The notes beneath the pieces were generated by a model that had not been told where the DNA came from, made no database searches, and saw only the letters and a list, made by a program, of their open reading frames with translations. A stretch of DNA of 64,000 bases, taken from the human T2T-CHM13v2.0 reference genome, Homo sapiens. The translations under genes were made by a program, and so were the position numbers. The stretch lies in contig CP068257.2 in NCBI GenBank assembly GCA_009914755.4, forward strand, positions 32,160,001 through 32,224,000, in the 5' to 3' direction. This document shows positions 20,182 to 34,293 of this stretch, in pieces (position 1 is the first letter of the stretch; each line of letters starts with the position of its first letter).

Positions 20182-21589
20182 TAATTTGCCTTTTTTTTTT
20201 AAAAAAGGGATAAATGAAAGACTGAACAAAAAGATAAATGAAAGACCAATCTAATCGGAATAGCTAGAAAAAGCTATCCTTTATAATATCTGATGTGAGC
20301 TAGAATGTATTTAAGATTCTTGTGTGGTTGTGTGATTGTACAGTTTTGCAAATAATGTTCAGTGGAAGCAAGTCATTGCTTTTTCTTTGTGTGGTAAATT
20401 ATACCAGTTTTGCTTGGTCATCCATGTGCTTCTTTAGTGCTTCAGTATACAGAAAGAAAAGAAAGAAAAAACACTTTCAAGCTATTCTGTAAAGGTTTAC
20501 TGGTCCCCAGCTACATAGTGGGCAGAGATGGGCGTGAGGTATGGAGTTGCATTAGGCACCTACCTGCCTTCAGATGCATGCAGTCCAGGGGAAAGACTGG
20601 CAGGTCATCAGACCTACAGAGTAGCAACCATGTCATAGGAGGGGCAAATTAATTTTTTGATAGTTTTTTTTTTAATCTGAAAATAATTTCACCATTGATC
20701 TTAGGAAGTTAGTTTAAGTTCTTCATGCGTCCTCCTAGTATAAGATGAGGATTTATTTTTCCCCTTCAGTCAGTAGGAAATCTTGCATGTCATACAGTTC
20801 AAAATCATGTGGAGATAATACTTCCCCCTCGTTGCTTTTCAGATAAGATAGGTATATGTCAAAATACTTGTAGCTCTTGAGTAAAAATGCCCAAAGGTCT
20901 GTTACTAGTTTTTGCTAACCAGAATCCAAAATATCCTCCGCTCATGTGCATTTTTAAACATTTTATTTCATGTAAAATCTAAATTATTTTCATCTAGGTT
21001 TCATCCTTAGGCTAATTATTTCCCAAAGAAATGTAGAGGAAGAGTGTCTTCATCGGGGATTATCAGTATAACCAAAATCAGCACTTAGTTTTTATATGAC
21101 CAGGTTAAAGAGCCTAAAACATCTGCATTTTCATGTTTCAGTATGGAAACTGGTGCCTCTGTTCCCTCCCAAACAAGTTGACTCCTTGGCTGATTCAGAC
21201 TTTGGGTCATATCCTAACTGCTACATTGTACTCAACACACTGGGTAGGGAGGAGGGCGGGTATTGATGCTTTACAGATCTGCACTGCTGGAGCCCAAGGA
21301 AAGAGGCAGAGACAAGGGACCTTTAGGCAGCCTCGCCGCACCCAGGCTTGGAGTGACCTTTGTTTAGAGAGAGTCACTAATGAACTCTCTCATGGGTTTT
21401 TGTTGCTGACGTCAGATTTGGCTGTGCTTTGGCATTCAGTATGTGTTTCAGAAATTCCTTGAATGGAGGGAAATAGTTCAGAGGTTAAGATAGGCAATAG
21501 AGGAGAGGTTAGTTGTTTGGCTTGTTGTCATACATTTGTGTTCTCTGTAATTATTTATTTTTGTCCCCCCCACCTTTTTTTGTAAACAG

Positions 21590-21711
21590 AAAAAGGTCCA
21601 CTTACCATTTCTGCACAGGAAAATGTAAAAGTGGTGTATTACCGGGCACTGTACCCCTTTGAATCCAGAAGCCATGATGAAATCACTATCCAGCCAGGAG
21701 ACATAGTCATG
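21590..21711 (+). CDS. ITSN1: ITSN1 exon encoding the N-terminal half of SH3A: (E)[40 protein letters not shown]
   Basis: Acceptor is ccccccacctttttttgtaaacAG. Donor is GTAAGA at 21712. The ALYPFE motif is typical of an SH3 start. Confidence 0.9.
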
Positions 21712-21999
21712 GTAAGAAAGACTCCAGTGAGAGGGTCATTTCTGTTGAAGATTAGCCTCTGTCCTCTTTTTTTCACTTTATTCAACAATTGTGAGATTGT
21801 CAGTGAGTATGAAACCCAATAATCCAGCATCTAGATTTTTAAAGTATAAGCTCAATCTTCTTTCTTTTCTATTAAAATGAAAGATGGCATTTAAAAAAAT
21901 GTATCCTAACATCATTTTAAAATTGAGTTGATAAAGACAGTGTGTTCTTATTTTTAAATCTATAAATGTCTGATAATTTCAGAGTTTAGATTACTACTT

Positions 22000-22155
22000 A
22001 TATACTATGAGTATACATATATATGTAATACATATATTTTATATATGATGTATAGACAATATATATACTAGTGTGCGTGTGTATATATATGTGTATGTAT
22101 AATATATACTAGTGTGCGTGTGTGTATATATGTACACATATATATACACACACAA
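22000..22155. repeat. (TA)n/(TG)n-rich simple-repeat region with an internal imperfect duplication (atatatactagtgtgcgtgtgt occurs twice)
   Basis: tatacatatatatgtaatacatatatttt...atatatactagtgtgcgtgtgtatatatatgtgtatgtataatatatactagtgtgcgtgtgtgtatatatgtacacatatatatacacacac. Confidence 0.8.
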
Positions 22156-22596
22156 AAGGATCCTCCAAGGTGGAAGGAGGCCAGGAGTCTTTAAGAAATA
22201 GTTATAAGTGCAAAACACTCTATCAAATCATTCTCATAATTGCAATAACTTTTGTATCTTTGCATCAAAGCATCTTTTTTCCCTTTAATTATGTGAACTT
22301 TTAATTATGTAAAAAGAGTAATGAATTATACAGTTAATCTGCTTTCCTACTTTGTAACAGAAAATAGTTTAGAATTTTGCTTTGTTATTGTTTCTTTCCT
22401 TGAACTAATAATCATTTTATGATGTGACTAAAACTATAGGAACCAGTTTAAGAAAGAAAATCAGACATGGTTGATCTAAATCATTTTCTAAAAGAAAATA
22501 GTAGTTCCTTGTTCTAGTTACTCTCTTTAGAGTCTTAGAAGTAGTCAACTCTGCATTACTCTTAACATTTTTTTTTTTTTTAAAGATAATTTAGAT

Positions 22597-22970
22597 TTTT
22601 TTTTTGTTGTGGTTGACACAAGTTCTCACTCTGTTGCCCAGGCTGGAGTGCAGTGGTGTGATATTGGCTCACTGCAACCTCTGCCTCCCTGCAACCTCTG
22701 CCTCCCTGCAACCTCTGCCTCCCTGCAACCTCTGCCTCCCTGCAACCTCTGCCTCCCGGGCTCAAGCAAAGCGATTCTCCCACCTCATCCTCCCAACTAG
22801 CTGGAACCACAGGCGTGCACCACCATGCCCAGCTAATTTTTGTAATTTTTATAGAGATAGGGTTTCTCCGTGTTGCCCAGGCTGGTCTTGAATTGCCTGG
22901 GCTCAAACGATCCTCCCAGGTCAGCCTCCCAAAGTGCTGAAATTACAGGCATGAGCCACCATGCCTGGCC
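22597..22970 (-). mobile_element. Alu, antisense, carrying an internal 5-copy tandem 17-mer expansion
   Basis: Poly-T followed by ...ctcactctgttgcccaggctggagtgcagtgg... ending ...gagccaccatgcctggcc. Its length of about 374 bp is inflated by the 17-mer repeat. Confidence 0.92.
22673..22757. repeat. Five perfect tandem copies of the 17-mer tgcaacctctgcctccc inside the Alu
   Basis: The copies occupy 22673..22689, 22690..22706, 22707..22723, 22724..22740 and 22741..22757. Confidence 0.95.
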
Positions 22971-23263
22971 TAGAATTTGTAAAGAACTGTGAAAGTTAAC
23001 AATTGAAACAAACATGTTTCTTACCCAAGGACTGTATGTCTTTGAAGTATAAAGGGTGGTGTACAGGTGATTTTACTATTACTCATGCATTCATCTTGCC
23101 ATATACACATCATATCTGTGGATCTTTAATAGGCTAAAATACCTAGAAATAACAATATGTTTGGCACTTAGAGAAATGAATTCCTGTGTCCCCTTTTTTC
23201 CTAATAGCTGCTTTCTCTGTAATTACCATGGGCTAGAAGAAGCAAGGCCAAACATCCCAAATT

Positions 23264-23480
23264 ATTTTTTCTTTTTTTTGAGACAGGGTCTCACTCTGTC
23301 ACCTAGGCCAGAGTGCAGTGGCATGATCTTGGCTCACTGCAGTTTCCACCTCCCAGGCTCAAGTGATCCTCCTGCCTCAGCCTCCTGAGTAGCTCAGAGG
23401 CGTGTGCCACCACACCGAGCTAATTTTTATTTTTTTACATTTTGTAGAGACAGAGTCTCCCTATGTTGCCCAGGCTCCAG
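23264..23480 (-). mobile_element. Alu, antisense, truncated
   Basis: Poly-T followed by gagacagggtctcactctgtcacctaggccagagtgcagtggcatgatc... Confidence 0.9.
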
Positions 23481-24228
23481 ATCTTTAAAAGTTAAAATCA
23501 CCTTAACAGTAGCAAAAACCTCTTCAAGTATACTCCATGGCTTCATTCAGCACACAGTTATTGACTGAAACATGCTGGGTGCCAGCCTTACTCATCCTTT
23601 ACAGAAAGAACTGTTGGTTTGGGCATGCCACTCTGTACACACAAATGGTAACTTGAGCCAGCGGGGTGTGTTTCTGTCAGCTTTCCTCTGACTTCACCAC
23701 CTGCTGTTTCCTACACCGTGGTTTCTGATAGCCTGAAGCTACTTTACTCATACTGCCTCATATTTGAAGTAGTGTATCCTGTAAAGCAGATTAATTGTAA
23801 AATATGTAAACACCATATAATAGGAATCTAAAATTTCTGAAAATACAATGTCACATCAGTGAGGACCTCATTACAATTTTTTTTTTAATGTTAAACAAAC
23901 CAGCCTAATATTTTTGAAACTGGATTTTGTTGCAACACAAGGTGCAGAGAAGCAGCTCGCTCTCATCCTAAAGTAAGGGAATGTTATGAAATGTGATGAT
24001 GAGGAAATGTTGCAGGTGATCTGTATCTTAATGAGAAAGTGTTGCTCTTTTTCGGGAACATATCTGGGCTTCACTTGTAATCCTAGGCCTGTTGAAACCT
24101 TTTCCTCGAATTGGCTAGTTAACCACCAGCTTGATGAGATGCGTAGAGTTTAGATATGCTGTAAGAATAAAGCATGTCATTAAACATATATTTTGCCTTG
24201 CTTTCAAACCTTTGCTTTCCTGGTGGAG

Positions 24229-24243
24229 GTTAAAGGGGAATGG
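24229..24243 (+). CDS. ITSN1: 15-nt microexon GTTAAAGGGGAATGG encoding VKGEW, read as the neuron-specific ITSN1 SH3A microexon (usually called exon 20)
   Basis: The run ttttgccttgctttcaaacctttgctttcctggtggAG|GTTAAAGGGGAATGG|GTAAGT has a good polypyrimidine tract, an AG acceptor and a consensus GTAAGT donor. It is in frame between IVM and VDES. VKGEW matches the insert I recall in the n-Src loop of brain ITSN1 SH3A. Confidence 0.8.
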
Positions 24244-27200
24244 GTAAGTGTTGCCTAACTGTCAGGAAGTCTGCATCTTATTCAATGTTTTGTCCTTTTA
24301 AGTCACTTGAATTCTGTGTAAGTACACGTATCTCTGGGTGTTGTTGCGGCAGTAAAAATGTGTTTGAGTCTGTGTAGTAGGTTGTGCTTTTTAAAAAAAA
24401 AGTAAGTCGTAAGTCTTCTCAGTTTGTGTACTGGGTTTCTTTTTGTTAGATTCCTTTTAAGGACTAACTTGAATGCTCTGTGTTTGGCAAGGGATTAGGT
24501 CAAGTCTCCATCTCAGGCCATAGACAAAAAGGAGTTCCAAGTAGATTAAACATAAAAGATAAAATTCTGGGAAAAAAATTTTTTTAAGCAGACTATTGGA
24601 ATAATTTTCTGGCTAAGAAAGGCCTTTTGAAGCTATAAAAACCAGAAGTCGTTAAGAGGCAAAAATGGACAGTCAACAATATGCAAAAATTAAAATGTCT
24701 ATGTTTCAAAATATATGAGACCAAGGGTTACATAAAGGGTTACCCCTGTTACATAAAGATTCCGAACAGTTCACTTTGAAAGACACCCACAAGCCTTAAA
24801 CAATTGGCAGAGGGTGGGAAGGGACATTCACAGATGAAGTAAAAAGTCAGTTATTTAAAAAATACATGAAAAGATGCTTAGCTTCTTGGGTGATCAGAAA
24901 AATGCAAGTTATAAAACAAAATAGCATTGTTCCTCTGTCAAATGAGCAAGTTTAAAAGTCTGGTAATATCCAGCTTTGTCAAGAGTATAGGACAGTGGAT
25001 ATAATATACATTGTTAGCATGGTTGTATAAATTGGTTAAGCGATTTGGAAGGCAATTTGGCAGTGCCTGTTTAGATTTAAAATTCTCGTTCCCTCTGCCC
25101 CAGAAATTCTATTTTTCTCCTTCCTCTCATTCTTCTCCTTCCTCTTTTGGGCACATGCACAAATATGTGTGTACATGGATGTTCACTGCAGTGGTGTTGG
25201 TAAAAGCAAATAAACAGCCCAATGTCCATCAGTAAAGGGATGGCTTAAATAAATTATGATACAGCTAAAAAATACAATGAAGATTAAAACTTATGTAGAT
25301 CACATATACACATAAGATTTCCATCAAAAAAGCAGAATATGTGCAGCATAATTGCATTTTGGTTCGAAATAAAACTATATATGTATTCATGTGTTTATGT
25401 ATAGTTAACAGTTTTGAAATATATATATCAAACTGTTAACAATGGTTACCACTGGGCAGTAAAGAAGGGGCTTTCGTGTTGAATTTTATAGACTTCTATG
25501 TTATTTTCATTTTTATAAATGTATCTAATTTGTAATTTTTAATAAAACAAAATAAATTCAAGGACAAGTATATTAGAGAGTATCTACTCAGGACTGTAAT
25601 AATGTTTATTATATCTCAGACCTCCCAAATATGTAATGAAATGTAGAATGTACTACTAGGCATAATTCGTTGGCTTGCAGAAGGGACAGCAGTGTTTCGA
25701 TTTTGTACTACAAAATGCATTGTGATACTCCAGGTGCCATTCAGCTGTGTTATCTTTGTGAGGATAACAGTCAATGCAAAAAGATAGATATTGACATCTA
25801 ATAGCAACAGGTTTGTATTTTTTTAATTTCATGAATTTTGCAGTTAACAAATGATGAGCATGAGACATGTAGTACAACATTACTGTCAGTCTCCCTAGGT
25901 TGAAAAATCCGGGGTTCACTTATACTTTTGTGGGCACAGTCATCAGATTCTCAGATTCCTCAAACGTCTTTGGGACATAGCTTACTATAATATGTTCGAT
26001 TTTTAGAAGTCTAACATTGTGACAGTGTTTTTTAATGTAGGCAGTCTTAGCCTTAAAAATATTTTGTTTTTAGAAAAACTTAGCCTGGTTTTATCCAAAA
26101 CTATAATTTTTCATGTTTAACAAAAATTTAATGTGGTACCTTGTATATAGCACTATTCTCAGCACTGTAGATAATAGAAAATTATCAAGTCTGCCATTCA
26201 TATGTTTAAAATCTTTTTAGAAAAATCTAGAGAAACACATGAAAAGGCCAACATGTGATGAAGTTCTCAATAAACATTCACTAACTCTGCTAGGAATTTA
26301 AAAGAGGAGAGGAATCAGTGTAAAGTGATGTGCTCAGGGAAGACCAAATGCTTTCAATTGAGTCTGACCTTGATGGCTAAGGCTTAGATGCGTAGAAAAT
26401 ACATGGCCTCTCTTGATCTGGAACTCCCAATACTTGGAGGGTGAATTAAATCAAATTTGACATCCGTAACATGTTAGTAGAACATAAGAAATGAGAAGAC
26501 CTATGCTCACTGCTGTTTTGTTGAAGTTTATCTTGAGAACACAGGCTGAGTGTCTAAATCAGTACAATCTTTTGGCTTTCATGGGCCACATTGCAAGAAT
26601 TGTCTTAGGCTGCACATAAAATACACTAACACTAATAATAGCTGATGAACTTCAAAAAAAAGCTTGCAAAAAAAACTCATAATGTTTTAAGAAAGCTTAC
26701 GAATTTGTGTTGGGCCTCATTAAAAGCTGTCCTGGGCCACATGCAGCCAGTGGGTTGCGGGTTGGACAAGCTTGGTTTAAATGCTTATCCTTGGACTGGT
26801 ACAGGCCTGAATGCATCCAGATTGCTGAGGGAGCTTCCAAAAAATAACCATGCCAGGGCTCATCCCCAGAGATTCTGAGAACTCTACTGCATATACAGCC
26901 TTCAGAAGTCTGACCAGGTGGTTCTGTTAGGTAGTCAATTTCAGGAACCGCTGATCTAACCTAATCTCTTTTTCACGTCAGGACTAATCCTAAATCATTT
27001 CTAGAAAATATCCTCTTAAAAATATCCAAAGAAGAATGGACTTCTTTAGTAGTTATCAGTCATTAGCCAGTCAGTTCATTCTGGAAATTGTTTGTCTTAG
27101 TGTTACTCTTATAACAATTTTTAACTCATTCTTTTCCTTTTCTTCTCCTGACAGACATTTTTTTAAATGTAGCCAACAATACCTTTTTCCTCTACCTTCC

Positions 27201-27405
27201 ATAGATTTCCATAGATTAAACATCAGAAAGTATCTCATTTAGTAACAACTGGCCATAATATCACTGCAGTTTTGAGGGACCAGTATACACGATTACAGGG
27301 TTGGCTCAAATCTGGCCCAATCACTGCCTGTTTTATAATAAAGTTTTATTGGAACACAGCCAGGCTCCTTCATTCACATATTGTGTGCTACAGTGGCGGA
27401 TTTGA

Positions 27406-28064
<659 letters not shown>

Positions 28065-29044
28065 TCAAAACCGGCAAATCCATGGAAAATGTTTTACTAC
28101 CTGCACTCCTCAACACATCCCATGCAGCCACTGTCAGCTGGTCTGAATACACAGGCTAAACCTGTTTGCTACACTTGTTTATCATGTTCTATGAGGGGAA
28201 AAAGGAATTTCTGCTTCCCCCCTTTGTGACAAGGTCAGAGATTTTAGAAATATTAATCTTACCTAATGAAGATGGCAGCCATGGAGCATATAAAAATTGA
28301 GAAAAGAGGTGTAATATCATCGGCCTTTGCCAAACGGACTTGAAGCTGAAGTGGCTGCTGTGTATATTTGACTGTTGCATCAGCGAGCTACAATATGCAG
28401 TGTGTAATTACTAACATTTAGTAGAGCAGCTCTGTAACATAGTCCCAGAAATGTGAGCAATATCTGGTGTTTGTACTTCGCTTAAATGATGTTTCACTAG
28501 AATTACCCCCAAATACGTTGGGGTGTTACAGTGTGCCTGATAAATGAAATTGTATTGAGACCAAAATTGTTAATAATAACATCTCCCTTATAGCCCCCAG
28601 TAGGTAAATGTACATTGTGTAAAAGTCCACGTTGGAACCAGTCATATTACAAAGCAGTTTGTGTTCCTATTTCTTGGTCTGCCATAATCTTATGTTTTCC
28701 AAAATTGGATTGGCATTTTGGGTAGTTTTCCAAATCCAAGAAGAAATATTTTTCATTTTCATATGTTGACCTTTGTGCCCTTTCTAAGTGGTTAATTTAA
28801 TTTAGGTGTTAAGAATGAAAGTCTCTTACAGCCCCTGAACCTTAAAATGTAATAATTTATTAAAATTGATGTATACTTGTAAGAGTAAATTAAGCTAATT
28901 GAGACTATTGTTTGGGGGGCTGTTGAGACCAACAGATTTCTTTGCTTAAAAGTGAAATGCTGATTTCACTGTTATCCTTAGGGATGGGAGAAGCTCTTGC
29001 TTAAGGGGATAAGAGGCTGATATGGCCCCCTCCTTCACTCCTAG

Positions 29045-29422
<378 letters not shown>

Positions 29423-29712
29423 TAAAAGTCTTATTAACCAGTCAATACCCTGTGTTTCAAGGGAGTAACAATAGATCATGGGACATAATTAAGCAAAGCA
29501 GCTGACCTTTGAGGAGGTCCAAAATGAGCAGACGAGTAGGAGTTCCCGTCGATCAAGGGATCCACTTGAGCCCCTAAAGGATTGCTTATGGCAAGAAGGT
29601 AAACCTAGAGGGAGCAGAGGACCAGGCAGTTAGAGCAGGGAACTCCTGAACAGAGAAGCAGATTGTTACCTAGAGTGAAGGTAAAGTCAAGACCAGGCTT
29701 TTGGCCGGGCGC

Positions 29713-30005
<293 letters not shown>

Positions 30006-30101
30006 GACCAGGCTTTTAGAATAGGACAGAAGCCCAAGTAGGAGAACTACAGCGCAACATCAGAGCTGGACAGCAGAAGAGAGAATTTAAAAAAAATATC
30101 T

Positions 30102-30600
<499 letters not shown>

Positions 30601-31565
30601 TTCTTGATCATTACACTTTGCAGTCTTGACACTAAGTTATTGTGTGTTTGGCTCAAGCTCCTAACCCACTCCTGCCTGACATCACCTTTGGTCCTAGAAC
30701 CAAGGTGGCTGATCTTGACTATTGAACCTACTGAGAAGTCTGGCAGGACCTGGCTTGGATAGAGACAGCTATGTTTCCAGTGTGGAGCAAAGTTATAATG
30801 TGTCACCATATCACCAAAATGTAAACAAGGAAGGAAAGACATCTAGCCATTTGAGTTCAGCATAAAAGAAGATCCAAATGGGGGAAAATTTATCTTAAAT
30901 CCTCATCTAGAGAAACAGTTGGGGCTGCCCAGAAAAAGAACAGTAAGAACAAAACAATGACTGCAAAGTGGCTAGTGTGTTCATGTGGGTGTAAGTGTGA
31001 GCAGAAATGATAGAACTGTGAAGCCAAAAATTCAACCTTTGGAAGTGTTATTGCATTTTATACAAGGGAACTCCTTTTTTGGTTGTTTGGAGAATTCTCA
31101 GCTTTAAAAATTGCTTTTATCTGTGACAATAAAGATTCCCTAAAGTGGAGCAGCAAGCAGGCATCCCCTACTTGCTGAATATATTGTAAATAACAGGTAG
31201 AAATCAGAAGTAAGCCTTGCCTTGCATTCTGTTTTCTCCACCTCTACCCCAAACATTTGTTAATTCAAATAAGCTAATAAGTATTGAACCCTATTACTCA
31301 CTGTCCACTGAGTACATACAGATAGATGTTTGGTTTGTTTAATGTAATCATTTTTTGCTTTATTTTTAATTAATTTTTACTGAATACTTGAATGGATTAG
31401 ATAACTGGTATTTTTGTCAGATTTTTCCAAAATCATTGTTAAGACCCTGCCTACTCATGTCTGATTTCTAAGAAGCAACTTTAATTTCCAGTGAAGTGTT
31501 TGATGTTTTACTCCTTAGGCAGCATAGGAAGGGGTAAAAATAAGATATAAGGTTTCATAAGATAA

Positions 31566-31890
<325 letters not shown>

Positions 31891-32773
31891 CAAAAATAAA
31901 TTTCCCAATAGCAAATGTGATTGTCCTCCAAAGTCATTCTCCTGTTGCTCATAAAATAGTAGGGACAACTCGTAAAGAAAAGTAGAATCGTTTTGGCCAT
32001 TTTGGATGATCCATTTGAGTCAGAATTAAAATGCAAACCTTAAAAGCATTTGGCGTAATAAATGGCCTCTGTGAAATTTTTAAACAGTATAATCCTGGAT
32101 TTTCCTGTGCACTGAATATGCAAGTTAAATTTATACAAAAGAAAACTACAGGACCTTAATACAATTGATTATTGCTGTAAATAATGACTTCCTTAATTTT
32201 CTCATCATGTGTCTGTGGAGCTTTTAAATGCCTAAACACAGCAGCAGTCAGCTTTGCTTCTCGTGGAAACCATTTAAGGCCATGGTTTTTTTTTTTAAAT
32301 CTTCCTTGTCCTTATACTGAATAAATACTACTTAGTTATTGGAGGTTTTCAGAGTACTGAATTTATATTGATTGCACCCTTTGCTTTCAACTTTAAGTAA
32401 TAAACTCAAGTCAAATTATTTTTAATAATGACATGACTTTCTGATGAAGCCTGTTAAGTCACTTCCCAAATCAAAATATTTAAATTACATGCCTCAGGAC
32501 TCCAGGCACTTTGTCTCAACTGCCATTATTAGGACAGTTATGGGGTAAGGCTTTTTTAAAAAGTGCAGAGAATAAGAGCTTGAATTATAGTGCATTTTTT
32601 TTTTCAGCATTACTGCTTAGACTCTTTTCCCAGACACTTGGACTAAGATGAAGAGATTCCTATGCCATATGTCAATCTAAAGAGGGCAGAGGCTTGGGAC
32701 TTCACTGTAGTTGGGTGCTGGGTCTATTCAGGGGTTAATTTAGTTCTACTTAAAGCTGTGACTTTTTCCACAG

Positions 32774-33021
32774 GTGGATGAAAGCCAAACTGGAGAACCC
32801 GGCTGGCTTGGAGGAGAATTAAAAGGAAAGACAGGGTGGTTCCCTGCAAACTATGCAGAGAAAATCCCAGAAAATGAGGTTCCCGCTCCAGTGAAACCAG
32901 TGACTGATTCAACATCTGCCCCTGCCCCCAAACTGGCCTTGCGTGAGACCCCCGCCCCTTTGGCAGTAACCTCTTCAGAGCCCTCCACGACCCCTAATAA
33001 CTGGGCCGACTTCAGCTCCAC
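32774..33021 (+). CDS. ITSN1: ITSN1 exon encoding the C-terminal half of SH3A plus linker: [82 protein letters not shown](+AC)
   Basis: Acceptor is actttttccacAG. Donor is GTACGT at 33022. The split T codon is completed by the next exon. Confidence 0.9.
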
Positions 33022-34293
33022 GTACGTGTTGGTGGGCTCTTTCTGATGATTTTTGAAATCCCAATTTGATCATTTCCCCCCCACCCCCTTAAGTATTTTC
33101 ATAGTCTTGGATTGTCCTTCTATGTGAGGGAGCTGGCTCATTTTCAGTACTCCTTTCTCTAGCTGGCGAATTGGAGATTACAGTCCCTGAACTGGATTTA
33201 ATGATATCATTGTCTAACAGTGACTTACCATGGTACAAAATGAAGCCTGTTATCTTGTTTTGTTCAATAATGTATTTGTATCTATCATTCTTGTGGAAGA
33301 AGTGGAGAAATACAGTTTCCTAATAATCTATTTTGACATCCATGTCAGTCAGCAAATTTTCAGAGTTATTTCCTGCATGCAAATAGCACTTTTTTTTGCC
33401 AGGCAGAAGCAAAAATTGAATTCAGTCATGTGGTTCTGAATAAGATAGAAAGCTGTTTCCTTTAAAGCTTTCCACTTTCATTAATCTTATACAAATGTAC
33501 AGTAGAATGAAGAGGTGTTTGCACTTGGCCAGTTAGTTCTGTGCCCTGGTTCATCAGGAAATGGCATTTTAAAAACTGTGTGTAAGCAGAGGTTTGAAAT
33601 GATAGATGAAATGGTTGTTCAGACTTCCAGTTATAGGGCCATGACCTAGATGAGCAATTGTCTAAAAATATTTTATACTAGGATACAAGTATGAGTGATT
33701 TGAATAAGAAGTGTTTAAATTTTTTTTCAAGTCTAATCATCTTTCAGAAGAAACAAATTGAAGGCAAGGAATCCAGATGTATTGCTGGAGAAGGATCAGA
33801 TGGAACAAATAGAGGGAAGAAAGAATAATTACTCAGGGCGGGAGGAAGTGGAGGGAAGGATGTAAGGAATAGCAAGTTTTTCATACTTTATTTTCACATA
33901 AAAGGCTGAAGGCGCTAAAGAAGGTCCCCTCATCTAATCTCTGCTTTAAGAAAAAAAAGCCTTCCATTAGCTTGACTTCCAAGTTGAAACTTTTCCTTAC
34001 TCTTTTGGTCTTGACTGAAAAGTTCTGAGTTTTTAAACTAAAGCTTAGGCTAAAATAGAAGACTAATACCATATTTTCCAGGATTTGTTTTGCTGGGGAT
34101 CAAATCAGTATGCCTCTTCTTCAATATATGTATGGTGTGCAGTTCTCTTGCTATAATTATGGGCACCTTATTTTCCAAATGAAAAATCAGGAATTATTTT
34201 GATTTTCAGATTTGTTTGTATATCTTATAAGGATGTAAAAAGTAAATTGCCTTTAGATCTGCAGTCACACAGACATGTTTATCTAAAATTATT

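What the first reader, a model, noticed from the sequence alone, without database searches (positions are those of the whole stretch)
24229..24243. 15-nt VKGEW microexon with perfect splice signals inside the SH3A-splitting intron
About 2.5 kb into the 11-kb intron that splits the SH3A coding sequence (between ...GDIVM and VDESQ...), the sequence reads ttttgccttgctttcaaacctttgctttcctggtggAG|GTT AAA GGG GAA TGG|GTAAGT. It is an in-frame 15-nt exon encoding VKGEW, with a polypyrimidine tract, an AG acceptor and a consensus donor. From memory, this matches the neuron-specific ITSN1 microexon that inserts five residues into the n-Src loop of SH3A and changes its ligand preference. Finding it directly in the sequence supports the ITSN1 assignment. 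It also marks this intron as a site of regulated splicing, so flanking intronic enhancers for neuronal splicing factors (SRRM4/nSR100 and PTB/RBFOX-type UGC, UCUC or GCAUG motifs) are expected nearby.
Basis: partly seen in the sequence, partly recalled or inferred. Interest (0 to 1): 0.6.

Follow-up and report, generated by a model that had tools for sequence, protein, structure and literature searches.

The report
Known neuronal ITSN1 SH3A microexon (VKGEW)

Summary
Window 24229-24243 (GTTAAAGGGGAATGG) is an in-frame, phase 0-0, 15-nt exon encoding VKGEW. It lies 2,517 nt into the 11,062-nt intron that splits the ITSN1 SH3A coding sequence. The flanking exons are 100% identical to the crystallised human intersectin-1 SH3A (PDB 6h5t), which has a 5-residue gap exactly here.

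Seven orthologous vertebrate contigs carry the same exon. Nearly all differences are synonymous. Between human and a distant tetrapod it is the only alignable block in the whole intron.

VastDB/hg38 coordinates for ITSN1 HsaEX0032608 fit the window. Published RNA-seq shows neural-specific, SRRM3/4-dependent inclusion: PSI goes from 0 to 82% in HEK293 with SRRM4, and is about 90% in zebrafish brain against 0 in other organs.

Two corrections:
- The splice signals are not "perfect". The donor is consensus, but the acceptor is a weak GAG behind a G-rich spacer, as expected for a regulated microexon.
- Of the predicted enhancers, only UGC is supported. There are three within 35 nt of the acceptor, and the one at -16 is invariant from fish to human. 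GCAUG and UCUC are not conserved.

An internal AG gives an annotated 8-nt frameshifting variant.

Verdict: real, correctly interpreted, already known. Low interest.

The parts
21590..21711 (+). ITSN1 exon encoding the N-terminal half of SH3A (…[40 protein letters not shown]); donor gtaaga at 21712
   Evidence: Translation. 100% identical to PDB 6h5t and to P0042, human intersectin 1 partial.
24190..24228 (+). Conserved upstream intronic flank: interrupted pyrimidine tract with three UGC motifs (24194-24196, 24199-24201, 24213-24215, i.e. -35, -30, -16), then a G-rich spacer and the GAG acceptor (AG at 24227-24228). Candidate SRRM3/4-responsive enhancer.
   Evidence: UGC positions are conserved in all orthologs, and the -16 UGC is invariant in 7 of 7. 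Three UGC in 40 nt occurs in 1.1% of intron windows. This is the only block alignable between the human and L012 introns. The role of UGC in the SRRM4 response comes from 10.1101/2024.09.17.613571.
24229..24243 (+). 15-nt microexon GTTAAAGGGGAATGG = VKGEW (ITSN1 'microexon 20', VastDB HsaEX0032608, long form)
   Evidence: orthologs; VastDB coordinates and PSI data.
24236..24243 (+). 8-nt variant (GGGAATGG) using the internal AG at 24234-24235. It shifts the frame and gives …[23 protein letters not shown], with the stop at 32820-32822.
   Evidence: The predicted translation equals the C-terminus of P0042 (KAI2596056.1, KAI4003919.1, PNJ46012.1) exactly. VastDB lists two acceptors 7 nt apart and gives the length as 8.
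24244..24282 (+). Consensus donor GTAAGT (24244-24249) and the deeply conserved downstream flank, including ACTGTCAGGAAGTCTG
   Evidence: The literature gives this donor a MaxEnt score of 10.24, and a +3 A>G change abolishes the SRRM4 response.
24283..24393 (+). Extended downstream block conserved among mammals only (about 87-93% identity between human and L007); GU-rich; function unknown
   Evidence: Binned identity profile.
32774..33021 (+). ITSN1 exon encoding the C-terminal half of SH3A and the start of the SH3A-SH3B linker (INTAP/AP2-binding region). The 3' end at 33021 is inferred from the gtacgt donor.

Best explanation
Window 24229-24243 is the neuron-specific alternative microexon of human ITSN1 (microexon 20, VastDB HsaEX0032608).

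Splicing, partly inferred. In most cells the 15-nt exon is skipped. It is too short for ordinary exon definition and its acceptor is weak: GAG, with a G-rich spacer and an interrupted pyrimidine tract. In neurons, and weakly in endocrine pancreas, SRRM4/SRRM3 promote early spliceosome assembly on the upstream 3' splice site. They act through their eMIC domain and are helped by the UGC motifs 16-35 nt upstream of the AG. The consensus donor G|GUAAGU supplies strong U1 binding.

Protein, from the literature. Inclusion inserts VKGEW between the beta-b strand (…GDIVM) and the n-Src loop ([10 protein letters not shown]) of the SH3A domain. This re-tunes ligand preference, with more dynamin-1 binding and less SOS1/CBL binding, and is cited as relieving SH3A autoinhibition. 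The endocytic scaffold is thereby adapted to synaptic vesicle recycling and neurite growth.

Basis. Shown here: sequence, frame, gene identity, deep conservation of the exon and its flanks, the UGC architecture, and agreement with VastDB coordinates. Taken from papers: tissue specificity, SRRM3/4 dependence and binding changes. Inferred: which UGC is functional and where the branch point lies. The region free of upstream AGs extends to -58, so the branch point probably lies around -40 to -55.
For: Gene and position:
- The flanking exons are 100% identical to PDB 6h5t Intersectin-1 SH3A, with a 5-aa gap exactly at the insert. The solved ITSN2 SH3A (1uff) has a gap at the same place.
- Pfam finds SH3 plus INTAP.
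- Other ITSN1 exons lie on the same strand across the window.

Conservation:
- Orthologous exons are found in L007, L016, L012, L014, L017, L006 and L011.
- All four degenerate third-codon positions vary, and there is only one replacement (G to R, in one clade).
- The human and L012 introns align only at 24190-24282 (82% over 97 nt).
- Human-L007 identity is 80-93% from -90 to +150, against about 60-70% elsewhere.
- The -16 UGC, AG, GT.AGT and most of the exon are invariant.

Coordinates:
- VastDB gives chr21:33799929,33802430+33802437-33802444,33810975. This fits the window's 15-nt and 8-nt forms and the 8,531-nt distance to the next exon.
- The upstream distance differs by exactly 17 nt, which equals one unit of the 17-nt tandem repeat at 22668-22757.

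Expression and regulation, from papers:
- Endogenous PSI in HEK293 is 0 with GFP, and 17, 76 and 82 with low, mid and high SRRM4.
- In zebrafish, PSI is 88-91 in neurons and brain, 18 in beta cells and 0 in six other tissues. The change on eMIC loss is -45. In human the neural difference is +51.
- The exon is nSR100-dependent in mouse brain.
- The donor scores MaxEnt 10.24, and the artiodactyl +3 A>G change (seen in L007) kills the SRRM4 response.

Function, from papers.
Against: Nothing contradicts the identification. There are four limits:
- I could not align RNA-seq reads to the window myself.
- No retrieved text spells out the human peptide 'VKGEW'. A full-text search for that string found only unrelated papers. 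The link rests on position, length, VastDB coordinates and the zebrafish guide sequence.
- VastDB lists the human event with length 8 rather than 15, so some published PSI values may pool both acceptors.
- UGC motifs are reported to help the SRRM4 response but not to be strictly required.
Confidence: 0.97

Rival explanations
1. The biologically dominant product of this site is the 8-nt form (24236-24243). On this view it is a frameshifting 'poison' microexon that sends ITSN1 mRNA to nonsense-mediated decay, and the 15-nt coding form is secondary.
For: The internal AAG|G acceptor matches the consensus better than the upstream GAG and lies only 7 nt downstream. An annotated human and ape partial protein uses it. 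VastDB lists both acceptors and gives the length as 8.
Against: The peptide VKGEW/VKREW is under coding constraint from fish to human, with almost only synonymous changes. The zebrafish event is annotated as 15 nt. The experimental literature reports a 5-amino-acid insertion in the neuronal protein. The internal AG is forced by the Lys-Gly/Arg codons, and the length it leaves differs between species (8, 7 or 9 nt), so its presence is not independent evidence of function.
Confidence: 0.05
2. Inclusion is controlled mainly by RBFOX, PTBP or NOVA through GCAUG, UCUC/UCUU or YCAY elements, rather than by SRRM3/4 through UGC.
For: There is one GCAUG at -57 in human. UCUC runs lie upstream of the exon in both fish loci, and a UGCAUG lies at +110 in L006. 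SRSF11 and PTBP1 are discussed as microexon co-factors in PMC12871342.
Against: The -57 GCAUG is lost in L007, L016 and L012. No GCAUG lies within +200 in any tetrapod, and there is no UCUC within -60 in tetrapods. Direct published evidence shows SRRM4 dose-dependent inclusion and loss in Srrm mutants.
Confidence: 0.03
3. It is a chance AG…GT pseudo-exon that is never spliced in.
For: Short AG-N15-GT strings do arise by chance. A second one lies 59 nt downstream at 24303-24317.
Against: The exon and its flanks are conserved from fish to human while the rest of the intron is unalignable. The position matches the 6h5t gap exactly. Published inclusion data exist.
Confidence: 0.005

Closest known systems
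ITSN1 microexon 20 (Tsyba et al. 2008; Dergai et al. 2010; Gerth et al. 2019; VastDB HsaEX0032608)
   Same: It is the same object: the same gene, the same position in SH3A, 15 nt and 5 residues, and the same genomic geometry as the VastDB entry.
   Different: Nothing of substance. The window has 17 nt more in the upstream part of the intron, consistent with one extra copy of a 17-nt tandem repeat.
c-Src N1 neuronal microexon (n-Src; 18 nt, 6 residues in the SH3 n-Src loop)
   Same: Both are neuron-specific, SRRM-regulated, frame-preserving microexons that insert residues into the n-Src loop of an SH3 domain. Both change binding to dynamin-1, and they were studied side by side by Dergai 2010. 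Both give neurite phenotypes when deleted in zebrafish.
   Different: The gene, inserted peptide and length differ. The Src insert is basic (from my own knowledge), whereas VKGEW is reported to shift acidic residues towards the binding interface.
SRRM3/4 (eMIC)-dependent neural microexon programme
   Same: It shares the length (27 nt or less), frame preservation, UGC motifs between the pyrimidine tract and the AG, a strong donor, a weak acceptor, extreme vertebrate conservation including the flanks, and a location on the surface loop of an interaction domain.
   Different: It is classed as a 'low-sensitivity' target, so it needs more SRRM4 than the highly sensitive set. PSI is only 17 at low SRRM4.
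ITSN2 SH3A (PDB 1uff)
   Same: It is the paralogous domain, and it aligns with the same 5-residue gap.
   Different: The solved ITSN2 chain lacks any insert. Whether ITSN2 has an equivalent microexon was not tested here.

Membership tests
Human ITSN1 gene, SH3A-coding region | Flanking exons encode the intersectin-1 SH3A sequence | tested here: met
   100% identity to PDB 6h5t_A 'Intersectin-1' over 97 residues apart from the 5-aa gap. 100% identity to NCBI 'intersectin 1, partial [Homo sapiens]'.
Human ITSN1 gene, SH3A-coding region | SH3 domain followed by the intersectin-specific AP2-binding linker | tested here: met
   Pfam SH3_1/SH3_9 and PF16617 INTAP score above their cut-offs.
Human ITSN1 gene, SH3A-coding region | Genomic geometry matches the catalogued event (VastDB HsaEX0032608, chr21) | tested here: met
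   The acceptor spacing of 7 nt, the exon end and the 8,531-nt distance to the next exon are identical. The upstream distance is off by 17 nt, which equals one unit of the tandem repeat at 22668-22757.
SRRM3/4-dependent neural microexons | Length 3-27 nt and frame-preserving | tested here: met
   15 nt, phase 0-0, no stop codon.
SRRM3/4-dependent neural microexons | UGC motif(s) between the branch point / pyrimidine tract and the acceptor AG | tested here: met
   UGC lies at -35, -30 and -16. The -16 UGC is invariant in 7 vertebrate sequences. Such density occurs in 1.1% of intron windows.
SRRM3/4-dependent neural microexons | Deep conservation of the exon and its immediate intronic flanks | tested here: met
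   Orthologs are found in 7 contigs spanning teleost-like to mammal-like. It is the only alignable block between the human and L012 introns.
SRRM3/4-dependent neural microexons | Strong 5' splice site and suboptimal 3' splice site | tested here: met
   G|GTAAGT against gGAG with a G-rich spacer and a 65% pyrimidine tract. MaxEnt could not be computed here; the published donor score is 10.24.
SRRM3/4-dependent neural microexons | Neural-specific inclusion | not testable with these tools
   No RNA-seq alignment tool is available. Published zebrafish PSI is 88-91 in brain and neurons and 0 in six other tissues, and the human neural difference is +51.
SRRM3/4-dependent neural microexons | Inclusion depends on SRRM3/4 | not testable with these tools
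   Published values: HEK293 PSI goes from 0 to 82 with SRRM4, and HeLa from 0 to 37 with SRRM3. The exon is lost in the nSR100 mutant mouse. The change is -45 in the zebrafish eMIC mutant.
SH3 n-Src-loop insertions (c-Src N1 type) | Insert lies between beta-strand b and the n-Src loop of the SH3 fold | tested here: inconclusive
   The alignment to 6h5t, 1uff and GRB2 SH3 puts the insert right after …GDIVM, ahead of the loop [10 protein letters not shown]. The Pfam SH3_1 score drops from 44.2 to 36.7 bits with the insert, as expected for a loop insertion. The n-Src-loop location is stated in PMC3645719.

The most novel reading that the evidence does not exclude
The two acceptors 7 nt apart may form a regulated productive/unproductive switch. 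One is the weak upstream GAG, giving the 15-nt VKGEW form. The other is the better internal AAG, giving the 8-nt frameshift/NMD form. At low SRRM3/4 activity, some exon recognition would go to the 8-nt poison form and lower ITSN1 output. High SRRM4 together with the -16 UGC would enforce the upstream AG. This would add dosage control to what is regarded as a pure protein-recoding event. It would also mean that catalogued PSI values, where VastDB gives the length as 8, mix two outcomes.
Probability: 0.08. Interest if true: 0.35.

Novelty: already known. Interest (0 to 1): 0.1.

Why it matters
The finding confirms that the window is human ITSN1 on chr21. It also shows that a tool-free reader can pick a true 15-nt microexon out of an 11-kb intron.

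The exon matters biologically. It retunes the SH3A interactions of an endocytic scaffold in neurons, is slightly under-included in autism brain data sets, and gives a neurite phenotype when deleted in zebrafish. All of this is published, so nothing new is learned here.

The only mildly open points are how much the 8-nt frameshifting acceptor is used and what the mammal-specific conserved block downstream of the exon does.

Tried and rejected
- A strict chance scan (at least 70% pyrimidines at -23..-4, GTAAGT donor) missed the real exon and found only 24303-24317. This showed that the acceptor is weak, and I re-ran the scan with relaxed criteria.
- A full-text search for 'VKGEW' returned two unrelated papers.
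- Most hits from the search for homologous proteins are single-exon ORFs called on genomic contigs, so the search gave no transcript isoforms.
- The look-up of encoding contigs found nothing on record for P0042 or P0044. L001 ended before the microexon.
- Gerth et al. 2019 (Structure) is not held in the library. It is known only through a citation in PMC8044098.
- RNA structure gave nothing. The single-sequence fold has z = -0.23. The consensus fold merely pairs the pyrimidine tract with the purine-rich exon, and the covariation term is +0.36, so there is no support. I rejected structure as part of the mechanism.
- Rfam found no family on either strand at 21000-33500.
- RBFOX and PTB motif expectations were not supported by conservation.

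Full report
**Observation.** The upstream coding exon is 21590-21711. It encodes [40 protein letters not shown], ends on a codon boundary and has the donor gtaaga. The downstream exon begins at 32774 with [32 protein letters not shown]... and probably ends at 33021 before a gtacgt donor. The intron is 11,062 nt and the 15-mer starts 2,517 nt into it. It is phase 0-0 and encodes VKGEW.

**Correction to the observation.** The phrase "perfect splice signals" is only half right. The donor, G|GTAAGT, is consensus. The acceptor is GAG, with G at -3, the least favoured NAG by established knowledge of 3' splice sites. It is preceded by GGTGG, and its -23..-4 tract is only 65% pyrimidine, which is why my first strict scan missed it.

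**Chance.** I scanned for in-frame 3-30-nt AG...GTRAG mini-exons with a Y-rich upstream 38 nt. The 11-kb human intron holds three candidates, and this one scores best. In the orthologous 6.7-kb intron of L012 the same scan returns only the orthologous exon.

**Gene identity.**
- The joined flanking exons match PDB 6h5t_A "Intersectin-1" at 100% (E = 1e-58), with a single 5-residue gap exactly where VKGEW sits. The ITSN2 SH3A structure 1uff aligns with the same gap.
- Pfam finds SH3 domains followed by PF16617 INTAP, the intersectin AP2-binding linker. The SH3_1 score falls from 44.2 to 36.7 bits when the insert is present, as expected for a loop insertion.
- Further ITSN1 exons (coiled-coil region, SH3B, SH3C, SH3D/E) lie on the + strand across the window.
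- The NCBI protein "intersectin 1, partial [Homo sapiens]" (P0042; KAI2596056.1 and others) is 100% identical to three of the window's exons.

**Conservation.** Host-derived vertebrate contigs recovered through the flanking exons carry the same microexon.

| Locus | Type | Exon | Peptide | Note |
|---|---|---|---|---|
| L007 | mammal-like | identical 15 nt | VKGEW | donor gtgagt |
| L016 | mammal-like | GTTAAAGGGGAGTGG | VKGEW | last 38 intronic nt identical to human |
| L012, L014, L017 | non-mammalian tetrapod-like | GTTAAAAGGGAATGG | VKREW | |
| L006 | teleost-like | GTTAAAGGGGAGTGG | VKGEW | |
| L011 | teleost-like | GTGAAGGGGGAATGG | VKGEW | |

- All four degenerate third-codon positions vary and there is only one replacement, which is the signature of coding constraint.
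- Between human and L012, the only alignable block of the entire intron is 24190-24282 (82% over 97 nt).
- Between human and L007, identity is 80-93% from -90 to +150 against about 60-70% elsewhere.
- Invariant across all seven aligned sequences are the -16 UGC, the AG, most of the exon and GT.AGT.

**Literature.**
- PMC3645719 summarises Tsyba 2008 and Dergai 2010. "Microexon 20" adds 5 residues to the n-Src loop of ITSN1 SH3A, is neuron-specific, is conserved from human to zebrafish, lowers SOS/Cbl binding and raises dynamin-1 binding.
- PMC4387716 shows that the Itsn1 SH3 microexon is strongly nSR100/SRRM4-dependent in mouse brain.
- bioRxiv 10.1101/2024.09.17.613571 treats ITSN1 HsaEX0032608 as a low-sensitivity SRRM4 target. 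It reports a donor MaxEnt of 10.24, an artiodactyl-specific +3 A>G substitution (8.73), and complete loss of the SRRM4 response when that change is put into the human sequence. L007 has exactly this gtgagt donor, which suggests it is an artiodactyl contig.
- The supplement of the same preprint gives the VastDB coordinates chr21:33799929,33802430+33802437-33802444,33810975. It also gives endogenous PSI in HEK293: 0 with GFP, 1.1 in the SRRM4_CONT sample (which I take to be uninduced), and 17.2, 76.4 and 82.5 at low, mid and high SRRM4. In HeLa, PSI goes from 0 to 37 with SRRM3.
- These coordinates fit the window. The two acceptors are 7 nt apart (24229 and 24236), the exon end matches, and the distance to the next exon is 8,531 nt. 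The upstream distance is 17 nt longer here, equal to one unit of the 17-nt-period tandem repeat at 22668-22757. A copy-number difference is the likely cause, though this is inferred.
- PMC12626424 lists the zebrafish ortholog DreEX0040386 as 15 nt. PSI is 88-91 in neurons and brain, 18 in beta cells and 0 in six other tissues. The change on eMIC loss is -45, the human neural difference is +51, and the autism difference is -5.7. Deleting the exon lengthens neurites.
- The knockout guide in that paper, GCCTGAAGGTGAAGGGAGAGTGG, contains AAG|GTGAAGGGAGAGTGG, which encodes VKGEW. This ties the named exon to this peptide.
- PMC8044098 cites Gerth 2019 for the five-residue insert making ITSN1 constitutively active. 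PMC13388176 follows E20 inclusion together with Srrm4 levels in PC12 cells.

**Regulatory motifs.**
- UGC lies at -35, -30 and -16 in human. The positions are the same in mammals, -34/-29/-16 in the VKREW clade, and -29/-17 and -17/-12 in the two fish.
- Three UGC in 40 nt occurs in 1.1% of windows in this intron.
- The last AG upstream of the acceptor is at -58, consistent with the extended branch-point-to-AG region described for neural microexons.
- GCAUG occurs once, at -57, in human only. None lies within +200 in tetrapods. UCUC is found upstream only in fish.
- No conserved RNA structure is supported, and there is no Rfam family on either strand.

**Mechanism.** The most likely mechanism is SRRM3/4 (eMIC)-assisted recognition of a weak, UGC-flanked 3' splice site, paired with a strong donor, on an exon too short for normal exon definition. 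Inclusion inserts VKGEW at the base of the SH3A n-Src loop and retunes ligand binding and autoinhibition in neurons. This is the same logic as the c-Src N1 microexon.

**Side observation.** The AG inside the exon (24234-24235) yields an 8-nt exon. Its predicted product...[23 protein letters not shown], is identical to annotated human and ape partial proteins. VastDB lists this acceptor and even gives the event length as 8. Whether it is noise or a regulated unproductive isoform remains open.

**Verdict.** The feature is real, correctly located and correctly interpreted. It is already thoroughly known, so interest is low.

Noticed in passing
window 24234-24243: An AG inside the microexon creates an alternative acceptor that gives an 8-nt exon (GGGAATGG). 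This shifts the frame and stops at 32820-32822. It matches NCBI partial proteins KAI2596056.1, KAI4003919.1 and PNJ46012.1, and it is the second acceptor in VastDB HsaEX0032608, which lists the event length as 8.
   Followed up: partly
window 22668-22757: A tandem repeat with a 17-nt period (CTCCCTGCAACCTCTGC, 5.3 copies, 98% matches). One extra copy would account exactly for the 17-nt excess of this window's upstream intron segment over the VastDB/hg38 coordinates.
   Followed up: partly
window 24303-24317: A second in-frame 15-nt AG...GTAAGT candidate (TCACTTGAATTCTGT, SLEFC) with a good pyrimidine tract lies 59 nt downstream of the microexon donor. Its acceptor AG is not conserved in L007 or L016, so it is probably a pseudo-exon. 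The GTAAGT at 24318 is conserved in L007.
   Followed up: partly
window 24283-24393: A GU-rich intronic block downstream of the microexon is about 87-93% identical between human and the mammal contig L007, against a background of about 60-70%. It is not alignable to non-mammals. Its function is unknown.
   Followed up: no
window 24269-24272 (GTCT, +26..+29): A GTCT tetramer downstream of the donor is invariant in all seven aligned vertebrate sequences, including fish. In fish this may be an artefact of the alignment.
   Followed up: no
L012:2342-2356, L014:42-56, L017:2927-2941: One non-mammalian tetrapod-like clade encodes VKREW instead of VKGEW (GGG to AGG). This is the only amino-acid replacement seen in the microexon. 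The species of these contigs is unknown.
   Followed up: partly
L007:1387-1392: The donor is GTGAGT (+3 G) instead of GTAAGT. This matches the artiodactyl-specific substitution reported to abolish the SRRM4 response in minigenes, so this metagenome contig is probably artiodactyl host DNA.
   Followed up: partly
protein P0015 (Logan contig, not fetched): An intronless ITSN1 SH3A-like ORF joins both SH3A halves without the microexon and carries many substitutions. It looks like a processed pseudogene derived from the skipping isoform.
   Followed up: no
L011:3736-3829: In one teleost-like contig the microexon lies only 94 nt downstream of the upstream SH3A exon, against 2.5 kb in human. The upstream intron there is therefore close to the minimal size.
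   Followed up: no
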